A DNA stretch of 18,539 nucleotides from an uncultured archaeon (GCA_964525635.1 CAZGJX010000087.1:1-18539), one strand, 5' to 3'. Shown: positions 9,307 to 11,764, counted from the first letter of the stretch. Made by a program: numbers and translations. The notes: generated from the letters alone by a model not told the origin.

Positions 9307-9356
9307 CCATCTCTTCGACAAGATTCTAAATTTTATAATCTCATTTCATAAGATAA
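9307..9356 (-). promoter_or_regulatory. Eukaryote-like (Lokiarchaeal-type) SECIS element in the 3' UTR of vhuD
   Basis: Minus strand reads UUAUCU U AUGA A AUGAGAUU AU AAAA UUUAG AAUCUUGU C GA AG AGAUGG. It has an AUGA...GA core (9349-9346 / 9316-9315), a ~10-11 bp upper helix, apical AAA and a 6-bp lower helix. The core starts 12 nt after the stop of a two-UGA gene. Confidence 0.88.
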
Positions 9357-9361
9357 CACAT

Positions 9362-9796
9362 TTATTTCTTCTTTTTTTGTGTATCATTTTTTATAGGATT
9401 CGGACCAAGTTCCTTTATTTGTTTATCGAATTCTTTAGCAACTCGTTGAAATTTTTGGCCTTCTGCTGCACTACAAAATTCCATTTTTATCCTTTTATCA
9501 TTGATTCCTACAGTTGTAAGGATCTCTTTAATATATTCAAGCTCTCGAAAAGCAAAATAATTACCTGTTTCATAGTCACATTCGCGTGGGTATCATCCAA
9601 CAACAAGGACACCATCAGCGCCACGTCCAAATGATCTCATAACGAGATCTGATCCTACTCTACCAGTACAAGGTACAAGAACTGTCCTTATTGAAGGAGG
9701 ATATTGTGCACGAATAGTTCCTGCCATGTCTCCAGCACCATATCCTCATTTCCAACACAAAAACGCTATTATCTTTATATCTCCGTTATTATTCAT
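9362..9796 (-). CDS. vhuD: MvhD/VhuD [2Fe-2S] protein, selenoprotein with two Sec (U17, U68), 144 aa
   Basis: Absent from the ORF track. MNNNGDIKIIAFLCWK-U-GYGAGDMAGTIRAQYPPSIRTVLVPCTGRV...GADGVLVVG-U-YPRECDYETGN...SAAEG...LGPNP. TGA at 9746-9748 and 9593-9595 fall on the conserved CxxC and GC cysteines of MvhD. GAGG RBS upstream. Confidence 0.95.
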
Positions 9797-9811
9797 TTTT
9801 TTTAAGCCTCT

Positions 9812-11764
9812 TTAATCATTTAATGGAAGTAATTCATCTATATATGCCATATATTGATTATCCCTATAGTATATTAATTCTATAGCTTGAGATGGACAAA
9901 TAGCAGCACAAATTCCACATCCTCGACAATTAATAAGATCTACAACTATATTACTCGTTTTATTAACTGAGATAGCTGAATATGGACATGCTTCTATACA
10001 CTTATAACATTTTGCACAACGTTCATCCGTAGGAGATGCTCTTATTAATTCCATTGTATAATCTCCTTTAATCATTGGGATTGCCGCTGAAGAAGCTGCT
10101 CCTTTAGCTTGACTTACTGACTTGTCGATTTCTTTTTGACCTTGAGCAGAACCACAAATATATATTCCCGGAACTTTGGTACTTATTGGATCAAGTCGTG
10201 CATGATATTCTTTTAAGAATCCATCTGGGCTTCTCTCCATATTTAATACTTTAGCAATTTCTACAGTACCTTGAGAGGGAAGTGAAGCTGAAGATAAAAT
10301 AACCATATGGAACTCCATTGATATCACAGTATCAGTTCCAACGGGTTCAAATTGAACGATTAAATTTTTTGTTAAAGAATCCTCTCTCATACTACCAATA
10401 AGTCCTTTTAGGAATATAATTCCTGCATCTCTAGATCTTCTGTAATATTCTTCATAGCCTTTACCAGCGCATCTTATATCAATATATGTACAAATAATCT
10501 CAGAATCTGGATATTCTGATTTAATAAGTTTTGAGTTCTTTAATGATAAATTGCAGCATACCACACTACAGTAAGCATTCTTTTTAACATCTCTAGAACC
10601 AACGCAATTTATAAAAAGTATTTTAGTAGGACGTTTTTTATCAGAAGGTCTTATAAGATGACCATAAGTAGGTCCATTAGGGGCAAGAATCCGTTCTAAT
10701 TCAATCTGATTGATAACATTCTCATAAGTTCCATATCCATAATCATCTCCTTTATATAGGTCCCAACCTGTTGCCACAATTATAGTTCCAACTTCAAGTT
10801 CTATAATTTGATCTCTTTGACTAAAATCAATAGCATCATTTTCACATACATCAACGCAAGCAAAACATTCTACACAAGAATTTCTTATAATATCTTGAAC
10901 AGCTGGAACTGCCTGAGCAAATGCATTGTCTATTACTTTTCGAACTGATAGATTTTCATCAAAGTAATTGGGAACATAGATTGGACAAACTTCTGTACAT
11001 GATCCGCATCCAGTACATTTATTTTCATCAATAAATCTTGCCTTTCTATTTACTTTTACTTTAAAATTCCCGATATATCCATCTATATCTACAACTTCAC
11101 TATAGCTTAGTATATTGATTTTTTTATGACGATTTGCTTCCAACATTTTAGGACCGAGAATTCAAATAGAACAATCATCTGTAGGAAAGGTTCTATCTAA
11201 TTGGGACATACGACCACCAATGGTAGTATTTTTTTCTACTAAGTGTACTTGTAATCCTGCATCAGCTAAATCTATAGCAGCAGATAATCCTGCAATTCCA
11301 CCACCAACAACAAGTGCTACAGGAGTTACTGGAACTATTTTAGTTGCTACATCTTCTAATAAACGGGCCCTCGCAATTCCTGCTTTTATTAATTCAATAG
11401 CTTTTAACGTAGCCTCTTCTTTCTTCTGTTGATGTACAAAGCTACAATGTTCTCTTATATTTACAAATTCTAAATATCTAGGTCTAATTTCTAATTCTTC
11501 TAACATTGCATGGAAAACAGGTTGATGTGTTTTAGGAGTACAGGCAGCTATAACAACTCTATCAAAATGGATTTCTTCATGTTGTTCCTTTAAATAAGAT
11601 GATCCCCCTTCAGTGCACATTGATAAATATTCATAAGCCCATATATTCGAAATCTTATTAATTTCCTCAACTATTCTTGGTATATCTAATATTCCTGCTA
11701 TATTAATACCTCACCGACACACAAAAACCGCGATCTTAATATCATTGGTCTGCTCTTCAGACAT
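9812..11764 (-). CDS. hdrA: Heterodisulfide reductase subunit A, selenoprotein with two Sec (U18, U201), 650 aa
   Basis: Track ORFs 11162..11620 and 9812..11146 plus an upstream segment form one frame from ATG 11764. It reads IAVFVCR-U-GINIAG (cf. VCHCGxNIA; TGA 11711-11713) and DRTFPTDDCSI-U-ILGPKM (cf. CSxCIL; TGA 11162-11164). GGGIAG FAD motif, two ferredoxin domains and CSVVCC are present; length is canonical for HdrA. Confidence 0.96.

What the first reader, a model, noticed from the sequence alone, without database searches (positions are those of the whole stretch)
9307..11764. Four Sec codons in two cistrons apparently served by one downstream SECIS
Seen: TGA at 11711 and 11162 (hdrA) and at 9746 and 9593 (vhuD), all at conserved Cys positions. 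Only 15 nt separate hdrA and vhuD, so no SECIS fits there, and I found no convincing one upstream. Inference: a single 3' SECIS recodes UGAs up to ~2.4 kb away and across a cistron boundary. If translation were tightly coupled to transcription, the first UGA (codon 18) would be read before the SECIS exists. That implies ribosome waiting, failed pioneer rounds or uncoupled translation, and possibly selenium-dependent control. Multi-Sec Loki proteins are known; the mechanism is not.
Basis: partly seen in the sequence, partly recalled or inferred. Interest (0 to 1): 0.8.

Follow-up and report, generated by a model that had tools for sequence, protein, structure and literature searches.

The report
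Shared SECIS for Loki hdrA-vhuD
Two adjacent genes of an Asgard (Loki-type) archaeon carry four selenocysteine "stop" codons and only one recoding signal after the second gene; the arrangement is real and strongly conserved, but it was already described in 2016 and 2024.

Summary
hdrA (11764-9812, minus strand) has in-frame TGA at codons 18 and 201. vhuD (9796-9362) has TGA at codons 17 and 68. The two genes are 15 nt apart. One eukaryote-like "lokiSECIS" starts 13 nt after the vhuD stop (core 9351-9313).

Covariance models built only from relatives hit that site (39-78 bits). They find nothing significant in hdrA or in the 590 nt upstream. The genome holds tRNA-Sec, PSTK, SepSecS, archaeal SelB and a Sec-containing SelD.

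All 80 related Promethearchaeota loci have the same layout:
- hdrA is followed after 7-25 nt by vhuD.
- Each full-length pair has 3-5 UGAs.
- The hdrA stop is never UGA.
- Exactly one same-strand SECIS is found, always after vhuD.
- Synonymous sites show no hidden RNA element near any UGA.

So one SECIS most probably serves both cistrons over about 2.36 kb. This is the published model of Mariotti 2016 (PMC4989117) and Huang 2024 (PMC11227280). The window is one more member, not a new mechanism.

A side result: the SECIS folds as a three-helix element. The scan has noted lokiSECIS selenoproteins on other genomes before.

The parts
9812..11764 (-). hdrA: heterodisulfide-reductase subunit A homologue, 650 aa, two Sec codons, stop TAA
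   Evidence: PDB HdrA chains match at E 1e-198. 75 full-length orthologs.
11711..11713 (-). UGA codon 18 of hdrA (VCR-U-GINIA), a non-canonical extra Sec site
   Evidence: TGA in 74 of 75 orthologs; TGT in the C109 paralog. Aligns with Cys in 9sfi_A.
11162..11164 (-). UGA codon 201 of hdrA (DDCSI-U-ILGP), the canonical HdrA Sec site
   Evidence: TGA in 75 of 75 orthologs. Aligns with X in 9sfi_A.
9797..9811 (-). 15-nt intercistronic spacer with the Shine-Dalgarno-like AGAGG (9811-9807) directly after the hdrA stop
   Evidence: The spacer is 7-25 nt (mode 13) in 82 loci, mostly TA[AG]AGAGGT....
9362..9796 (-). vhuD/mvhD (FlpD family), 144 aa, two Sec codons, stop TAA
   Evidence: Pfam PF02662, E 4e-44. 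PDB 9sfi_K, E 9e-38.
9746..9748 (-). UGA codon 17 of vhuD (CWK-U-GYGAGD)
   Evidence: TGA in 82 of 82. X in 9sfi_K.
9593..9595 (-). UGA codon 68 of vhuD (VVG-U-YPREC)
   Evidence: TGA in 82 of 82. X in 9sfi_K.
9279..9363 (-). Complete SECIS element (three helices). Outer helix: 9363-9357 with 9293-9287. Core: AUGA 9349-9346 and GA 9316-9315. Helix II: 9345-9337 with 9325-9317. 11-nt apical loop AUAAAAUUUAG: 9336-9326. 3' side hairpin: 9310-9307 with 9301-9298.
   Evidence: R1 68.4 bits, E 3e-14. R2 39.2 bits. R3 78.2 bits. Covariation. Constrained folds.
8030..9181 (-). Downstream FrhB/FdhB-like iron-sulfur gene (context). It lies on the same strand, 180 nt after the vhuD stop.
   Evidence: Pfam FrhB_FdhB_C plus Fer4. 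Present on the same strand in 80 of 82 loci, with a spacer mostly 158-184 nt.
11845..11879 (-). Conserved AT-rich promoter-like block about 80-115 nt upstream of the hdrA start (context)
   Evidence: At least 80% column identity in an alignment of 71 upstream regions. No conserved fold.

Best explanation
This is a standard Lokiarchaeia-type hdrA-vhuD selenoprotein gene pair. The two genes are most likely transcribed as one mRNA, from a promoter about 100 nt upstream of hdrA to just past the SECIS.

The single eukaryote-like SECIS sits 13 nt after the vhuD stop. It has a kink-turn AUGA/GA core, a 9-bp helix and an A-rich 11-nt loop, set inside an outer helix with a small 3' side hairpin. It recruits the archaeal SelB-Sec-tRNA(Sec) complex, probably through a still unknown adaptor. 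Ribosomes anywhere on the same mRNA can then read UGA as Sec. That covers codons 18 and 201 of hdrA (2.36 and 1.8 kb upstream) and codons 17 and 68 of vhuD.

As in eukaryotes, the SECIS acts at a distance, so a cistron boundary is irrelevant to it.

Shown: the genes, the UGAs, the SECIS and its covariation, the absence of another element, the Sec machinery, and conservation in 80 relatives.

Inferred: co-transcription, Sec insertion, the adaptor, and how early ribosomes cope before the SECIS has been transcribed.
For: Anatomy.

Sec machinery:
- tRNA-Sec, 59.9 bits.
- PSTK-like, 178 bits.
- SepSecS, 486 bits.
- SelD with one in-frame TGA.
- SelB, 256 bits, with the aSelB_III domain.

SECIS:
- Models built without the window hit 9363-9301 at 68.4 bits, 9351-9313 at 39.2 bits and 9362-9279 at 78.2 bits.
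- Eight of nine helix-II pairs covary; 93.9% of cells are paired against 65% in shuffles.

Only one SECIS:
- No other minus-strand hit in hdrA or upstream is better than E 9.
- In 81 loci there is exactly one same-strand hit, always just 3' of vhuD.
- Synonymous variation in the 15 codons after each UGA is normal, obs/exp 0.95-1.09.
- The 5' UTR has no conserved fold.

Link between SECIS and UGAs:
- Both Sec-type pairs of the genome (C87, C109) have a SECIS.
- In the genome-wide scans no SECIS candidate lay downstream of the all-Cys paralogs.

Selection consistent with a SECIS that also reaches hdrA:
- The hdrA stop is TGA in 0 of 82 loci.
- The genome background is 13% TGA, and the vhuD stop is TGA in 7 of 82.

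The same model is published in PMC4989117 and PMC11227280.
Against: There is no transcript, proteomic or selenium-labelling evidence for this organism. An internal promoter in the 3' end of hdrA cannot be excluded; synonymous variation is somewhat reduced at codons 637-650. The covariance models look for lokiSECIS-type elements only. A completely different, poorly conserved signal would escape both them and the synonymous-site test. The SECIS hairpin alone is not unusually stable (z -0.95), so the evidence is comparative, not thermodynamic. PSTK scores below the curated cut-off.
Confidence: 0.8

Rival explanations
1. The SECIS after vhuD serves only vhuD. The hdrA UGAs are recoded by a different, unrecognised signal (a non-lokiSECIS structure, a sequence context, or a trans-acting factor).
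For: Cross-cistron SECIS action has never been shown by experiment. The base after each UGA is fixed per site: G at HdrA 18 and VhuD 17, A at HdrA 201. That could be part of a context signal, although it is also dictated by the conserved Gly or Ile codon.
Against: No region of reduced synonymous variation lies near any hdrA UGA in 75 orthologs. There is no conserved fold in the 5' UTR. There is no Rfam or covariance-model hit. UGA is an ordinary stop in this genome at 13%, so context-free readthrough would be harmful. The hdrA stop is never UGA, which fits a SECIS that reaches hdrA.
Confidence: 0.08
2. hdrA and vhuD are on separate transcripts (internal promoter or processing). The SECIS works in trans, or hdrA is poorly or conditionally expressed as a truncated product.
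For: A Shine-Dalgarno-like AGAGG follows the hdrA stop, and synonymous variation drops at hdrA codons 637-650. This shows a functional signal at the junction, which could include a promoter.
Against: Gaps of 7-25 nt in 82 loci leave no room for a terminator plus promoter. The TGA codons are conserved in place and exchange only with Cys codons, so they are translated. From my own knowledge, trans-acting SECIS elements are not known to work efficiently.
Confidence: 0.06
3. The SECIS is intercistronic rather than 3'-terminal. hdrA, vhuD and the conserved downstream frhB-like gene form one three-gene transcript with the SECIS in the spacer.
For: The frhB-like gene is on the same strand in 80 of 82 loci, with a tightly conserved spacer length of mostly 158-184 nt. 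Only 35 of 79 spacers contain a run of five or more T.
Against: The roughly 100 nt after the SECIS are AT-rich and poorly conserved. In the window they contain TATA-like sequence 25-55 nt before the frhB-like start, which fits an own promoter. This rival changes where the mRNA ends, not how the four UGAs are recoded.
Confidence: 0.25

Closest known systems
Lokiarchaeota HdrA-VhuD tandem pairs sharing one lokiSECIS (Mariotti et al. 2016, PMC4989117; Huang et al. 2024, PMC11227280)
   Same: Gene order, strand and very short gap. Multi-Sec HdrA that includes the canonical site near residue 200. Two Sec in VhuD. A single AUGA / 9-bp / 11-nt-loop / GA element just after vhuD. An hdrA stop that is never UGA. 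UGA-to-SECIS distance above 2 kb.
   Different: Nothing essential. This genome has four UGAs (U18, U201; U17, U68), within the published range of up to six. In the full text I searched, those papers use none of the words helix, hairpin or three-way for the lokiSECIS. The side hairpin seen here may therefore be an undescribed detail; I could not see their figures.
Methanococcales/Methanopyrus hdrA-vhuD selenoprotein genes with methanogen-type 3'-UTR SECIS; solved Hdr-Vhu complex 9sfi
   Same: Orthologous proteins. Positions aligned with HdrA 201 and both VhuD sites are recorded as unknown residue X in the solved chains, consistent with Sec. hdrA lies next to vhuD. The SECIS acts from the 3' UTR without a strict distance limit (PMC9622424).
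   Different: Methanogen SECIS elements have a GAA/A bulge type. HdrA there has one Sec. The distances tested by experiment are 88-679 nt, against 2,364 nt here.
Eukaryotic SECIS (type I) and multi-UGA selenoprotein P
   Same: AUGA...GA kink-turn core, A-rich apical loop, 3'-UTR position, action over kilobases, and several UGAs per mRNA.
   Different: Eukaryotic mRNAs are monocistronic and are translated after transcription and export. SelP uses two SECIS elements. SBP2 is the adaptor there, whereas this genome has only two L7Ae-family genes and no SBP2-like protein.
Bacterial SECIS (hairpin inside the coding sequence directly 3' of UGA, bound by the SelB C-terminal domain)
   Same: The same codon and the same amino acid.
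   Different: There is no conserved local structure or synonymous constraint after any of the UGAs. SelB is the archaeal type with the aSelB_III domain.

Membership tests
lokiSECIS (eukaryote-like SECIS of Asgard archaea) | AUGA immediately 5' of the main helix and GA (rarely AA) immediately 3' | tested here: met
   AUGA 9349-9346 and GA 9316-9315.
lokiSECIS (eukaryote-like SECIS of Asgard archaea) | 9-bp helix and about 11-nt apical loop beginning with a run of A | tested here: met
   8 Watson-Crick or GU pairs plus an A-C next to the core. The same position is unpaired in 20 of 40 relatives. Loop AUAAAAUUUAG.
lokiSECIS (eukaryote-like SECIS of Asgard archaea) | Helix supported by compensatory changes among homologous elements | tested here: met
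   All 9 pairs show double changes. Covariation score 0.90 against 0.27 in shuffles and at most 0.20 in slid controls.
lokiSECIS (eukaryote-like SECIS of Asgard archaea) | Lies within a few tens of nt after the stop of a UGA-containing homologue of a known selenoprotein | tested here: met
   AUGA lies 13 nt after the vhuD stop; -7 to +21 nt in relatives.
lokiSECIS (eukaryote-like SECIS of Asgard archaea) | Directs Sec insertion in vivo | not testable with these tools
   In the papers I read, I found no experimental test of any lokiSECIS.
Shared-SECIS hdrA-vhuD tandem (Mariotti 2016) | hdrA directly upstream of vhuD on the same strand with a very short or overlapping junction | tested here: met
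   15 nt here; 7-25 nt in 82 loci.
Shared-SECIS hdrA-vhuD tandem (Mariotti 2016) | Only one SECIS, downstream of vhuD, and none near hdrA | tested here: met
Shared-SECIS hdrA-vhuD tandem (Mariotti 2016) | hdrA ends in UAA or UAG, never UGA | tested here: met
   TAA here. 57 TAA, 25 TAG and 0 TGA in 82 loci.
Shared-SECIS hdrA-vhuD tandem (Mariotti 2016) | Both genes on one polycistronic mRNA | not testable with these tools
   Inferred only from the short gap and the absence of a terminator-like site. One weak terminator-like hit lies inside vhuD.
Selenoprotein HdrA | HdrA homology with Sec at the canonical position near residue 200, aligned with Cys in non-Sec homologues | tested here: met
   E 1e-198 to PDB HdrA. 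U201 aligns with X in 9sfi_A and with Cys in the paralogs.
Selenoprotein VhuD/MvhD (FlpD, PF02662) | FlpD domain with two Sec at the cluster-ligand Cys positions | tested here: met
   PF02662, E 4e-44. U17 and U68 align with X in 9sfi_K. That these positions are cluster ligands is my recollection and was not checked.
Bacterial-type in-frame SECIS | Conserved hairpin within about 10-40 nt 3' of each UGA | tested here: not met
   Synonymous obs/exp is 0.95-1.09 in the 15 codons after each UGA.
Methanogen-type SECIS (GAA/A bulge) | Two GC-rich stems around a GAA/A internal loop in a UTR | tested here: inconclusive
   No dedicated model was run. The Rfam scan gave no SECIS hit at E up to 10. No conserved fold was found in the 5' UTR or inside hdrA.

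The most novel reading that the evidence does not exclude
The hdrA-vhuD SECIS, like other lokiSECIS elements of this genome, may not be a simple hairpin. It may be a three-way junction: an outer helix reaching the stop codon, the kink-turn hairpin, and a conserved 3' mini-hairpin (AUGG/CCAU here). It sits in a length-conserved spacer before a conserved frhB-like gene. The junction could be the platform for the unknown archaeal SECIS-binding adaptor. If the three genes are co-transcribed, the SECIS would act from an internal, intercistronic position. I found neither point in the text of the papers I could search.
Probability: 0.3. Interest if true: 0.45.

Novelty: already known. Interest (0 to 1): 0.25.

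Why it matters
A single SECIS that recodes UGAs in two cistrons over more than 2 kb is one of the most unusual features of Asgard selenoprotein synthesis. It bears on how the eukaryotic "SECIS at a distance" system arose. It still lacks any experimental proof.

This window adds no new principle, but it gives a clean, fully annotated example. The comparative work here strengthens the published model with three tests I did not find in the papers I read:
- A covariance-model scan of whole loci in 81 cases.
- A synonymous-site scan that excludes hidden elements near the UGAs.
- A stop-codon comparison of hdrA and vhuD stops in 82 loci against the window genome's own TGA usage.

The timing puzzle (codon 18 is translated long before the SECIS exists if translation is coupled to transcription) is real but generic to archaeal 3'-UTR SECIS elements.

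Tried and rejected
- Rfam: no SECIS family hit at E up to 10, not even for the true element, so Rfam is uninformative for lokiSECIS.
- Single-sequence folding of the 3' UTR: z -0.95, not distinguishable from shuffles, so stability alone is no evidence.
- Strict and relaxed pattern scans of the whole genome: 17 and 86 hits, mostly chance in a 27% GC genome. They served only to pick out the true elements (C87, C109, C86 vhuU-like, C37).
- Model R1 (63 nt with flanks): too specific. It missed the paralogous SECIS on C109, so R2 (generic core) was built.
- The genome search with R2 scored only 150 of about 17,000 candidates, so it is not a complete genome census.
- Sigma-70 promoter and intrinsic-terminator scan: not relevant to archaea and below shuffle expectation.
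- Read-through fusion of HdrA and VhuD: the two are in frame here (15-nt gap), but the commonest gap in relatives is 13 nt. Rejected.
- Global UGA reassignment: rejected, because TGA closes 13% of long frames.
- SBP2-like adaptor: only two L7Ae-family genes. Nothing suggestive lies between SepSecS and SelB on C50.
- Shuffle test of the three-helix topology: 12-30% of shuffled flanks also meet the loose criterion. Support therefore rests on recurrence in five unrelated sequence families and on compensatory changes in the outer helix. The side hairpin is invariant among the orthologs.

Full report
**Observation**

Read with TGA as Sec, the minus strand of the window carries two genes.
- A 650-codon frame at 11764-9812, with TGA at codons 18 (11713-11711) and 201 (11164-11162).
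- After a TAA stop and 15 nt, a 144-codon frame at 9796-9362, with TGA at codons 17 (9748-9746) and 68 (9595-9593).

Pfam calls the first an HdrA-type flavo-iron-sulfur protein. It calls the second FlpD/MvhD at E 4e-44. The closest solved chains are HdrA (E 1e-198) and the hydrogenase delta subunit (E 9e-38) of entry 9sfi. In that entry the residues aligned with HdrA 201 and with both VhuD sites are written X, as expected for selenocysteine. HdrA 18 aligns with Cys. In the all-Cys paralogs of the same genome, all four positions are Cys.

**The organism and its Sec machinery**

The window is contig C87 of a 4.45-Mb, 26.8% GC genome. Its nearest relatives are Promethearchaeota (Lokiarchaeia-type Asgard) MAGs. 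It encodes:
- tRNA-Sec, 59.9 bits, above the Rfam cut-off.
- SepSecS next to the tRNA-Sec, 486 bits.
- An archaeal SelB with the aSelB_III domain on the same contig.
- A PSTK-like kinase, 178 bits, below the curated cut-off.
- A SelD with one in-frame TGA.

TGA closes 13% of long frames, so the code is not globally reassigned.

**The SECIS**

Thirteen nt after the vhuD stop lies AUGA (9349-9346). It is followed by a 9-position helix (9345-9337 with 9325-9317), an 11-nt loop AUAAAAUUUAG, and GA (9316-9315).

Rfam does not recognise it, and the hairpin is not unusually stable. The evidence is comparative. I fetched 80 related loci and built three covariance models from relatives only. They hit the window as follows:
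- R1: 68.4 bits, E 3e-14.
- R2, generic 39-nt core: 39.2 bits, E 5e-7.
- R3, 84 nt: 78.2 bits.

In a 40-sequence alignment, 93.9% of helix cells pair, against 65% in shuffles. All nine pairs show double changes. The pair next to the core is non-canonical in half of the sequences, as it is here (A-C).

**Is there a second SECIS?**

No.
- With filters off, R2 finds no other minus-strand match in 9797-12354 better than 7.5 bits (E 9). R1 finds none either.
- Over 81 loci (548 kb), R2 finds exactly one same-strand match per locus, always just after vhuD. The only additional significant hits are three on the opposite strand about 1.3 kb downstream. These probably belong to a convergent selenoprotein gene.
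- A type-agnostic test used codon alignments of 75 hdrA and 82 vhuD orthologs. Synonymous variation is reduced only at hdrA codons 1-18 and 637-650 and at the vhuD 3' end. These are the two translation-start regions and the approach to the SECIS.
- In the 15 codons after each UGA, synonymous obs/exp is 0.95-1.09.
- The 150 nt upstream of hdrA have a conserved AT-rich promoter-like block and two Shine-Dalgarno-like motifs, but no conserved fold.

**Conservation of the arrangement**

- All 80 relatives have hdrA directly upstream of vhuD, with gaps of 7-25 nt (mode 13).
- VhuD has U17 and U68 in 82 of 82 loci. HdrA has U201 in 75 of 75 and U18 in 74 of 75. Subsets have extra Sec at positions 50 or 75.
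- Per pair, the UGA total is four in 48 cases, five in 26 and three in one.
- The distance from UGA-18 to the AUGA is 2,332-2,426 nt.
- The hdrA stop is never TGA (0 of 82). The vhuD stop is TGA in 7 of 82.
- Within this genome, the second Sec-type pair (C109) has its own SECIS. In the genome-wide scans no SECIS candidate lay downstream of the all-Cys pairs on C13, C24 and C149. I did not scan those loci exhaustively.

**Interpretation**

The best explanation is that one SECIS on a bicistronic mRNA serves all four UGAs. It acts at a distance as eukaryotic SECIS elements do, so the cistron boundary does not matter to it. I put this at about 0.8.

Co-transcription, Sec insertion and the adaptor are inferred. 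This genome has only two L7Ae-family genes and no SBP2-like protein.

It holds for every archaeal 3'-UTR SECIS. In Methanococcus, Sec insertion works with UGA-to-SECIS distances of 88-679 nt and no strict limit (PMC9622424). Sequence cannot resolve it.

**What is known**

Mariotti et al. 2016 (PMC4989117) already report the following for Lokiarchaeota:
- HdrA and VhuD always occur as tandem pairs.
- Only one lokiSECIS is found, downstream of VhuD.
- One element may support up to six UGAs over about 2 kb.
- HdrA always ends in UAA or UAG.

Huang et al. 2024 (PMC11227280) extend this to hundreds of Asgard genomes. A 2026 review (PMC13188914) reports no experimental test. The finding is therefore an ordinary member of a published arrangement. 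Novelty is "already known" and interest is low to moderate.

**Side result**

The conserved element is longer than the published hairpin description. An outer helix (9363-9357 with 9293-9287) overlaps the stop codon. A 4-bp side hairpin (9310-9307 with 9301-9298) encloses a junction with the kink-turn hairpin.

The same topology recurs with unrelated sequences in the C109 paralog, in a second ortholog type (L056, L081), in a vhuU-like gene (C86) and in a Sec-Sec gene (C37). Six of seven outer-helix pairs show compensatory changes. The side hairpin is invariant among the orthologs, and a shuffle test of the topology is only weakly discriminating.

The words helix, hairpin and three-way do not occur in the main text of Mariotti 2016. 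Huang 2024 mentions only a lower stem and an internal loop. I could not see the figures.

The SECIS sits in a spacer of conserved length (mostly 158-184 nt) before an frhB-like gene. That gene is present on the same strand in 80 of 82 loci, so an intercistronic position cannot be excluded.

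Noticed in passing
window 9279-9363 (-); also G000:C109:7830-7900, C86:15880-15960, C37:14180-14285: The lokiSECIS folds as a three-helix junction: an outer helix reaching the stop codon, the kink-turn hairpin, and a small 3' side hairpin. The same topology appears with unrelated sequences in five element families. I did not find the side hairpin in the text of the two Asgard SECIS papers.
   Followed up: partly
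window 8030-9181 (-) and spacer 9182-9361: An FrhB/FdhB-like iron-sulfur gene follows vhuD on the same strand in 80 of 82 loci, with a spacer of conserved length (mostly 158-184 nt). This makes a conserved hdrA-vhuD-frhB-like module, with no hdrBC or hydrogenase genes in the window.
   Followed up: partly
window 11845-11879 (-): An AT-rich block about 80-115 nt upstream of the hdrA start is at least 80% conserved across 71 divergent loci. It may be a promoter plus a regulator site. Two Shine-Dalgarno-like motifs (GGAGG at -27, AAGGTG at -10) are also conserved.
   Followed up: no
G000:C37:13750-14235 (+): An ORF ending ...DPGC-TGA-TGA-DKIKK..., with a perfect 9-bp lokiSECIS (14201-14235). It looks like the adjacent Sec-Sec ubiquitin-fold family that this scan noted in other Lokiarchaeia genomes.
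   Followed up: no
G000:C86:15911-16110 (-): A VhuU/FrhA-like C-terminal peptide (...FDC-U-LSCAAH...), with a SECIS whose 3' core is AA instead of GA. Huang 2024 mention this variant.
   Followed up: no
L056:5221-5302, L061:5222-5303, L081:5311-5349 (- strand of those loci): A second lokiSECIS lies about 1.3 kb downstream of vhuD on the opposite strand in one ortholog subgroup. It implies a convergent selenoprotein gene there, which I did not identify.
   Followed up: no
G000:C24:24046-26493 and C149:1128-3701: All-Cys paralogs in which HdrA and MvhD are fused into one frame. The same genome therefore holds split Sec-type pairs and fused Cys-type pairs.
   Followed up: no
window 9797-9814: In this window vhuD is in frame with hdrA (15-nt gap), so read-through of the hdrA TAA would give a fusion. 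The frame relation is not conserved in relatives, where the commonest gap is 13 nt.
   Followed up: yes
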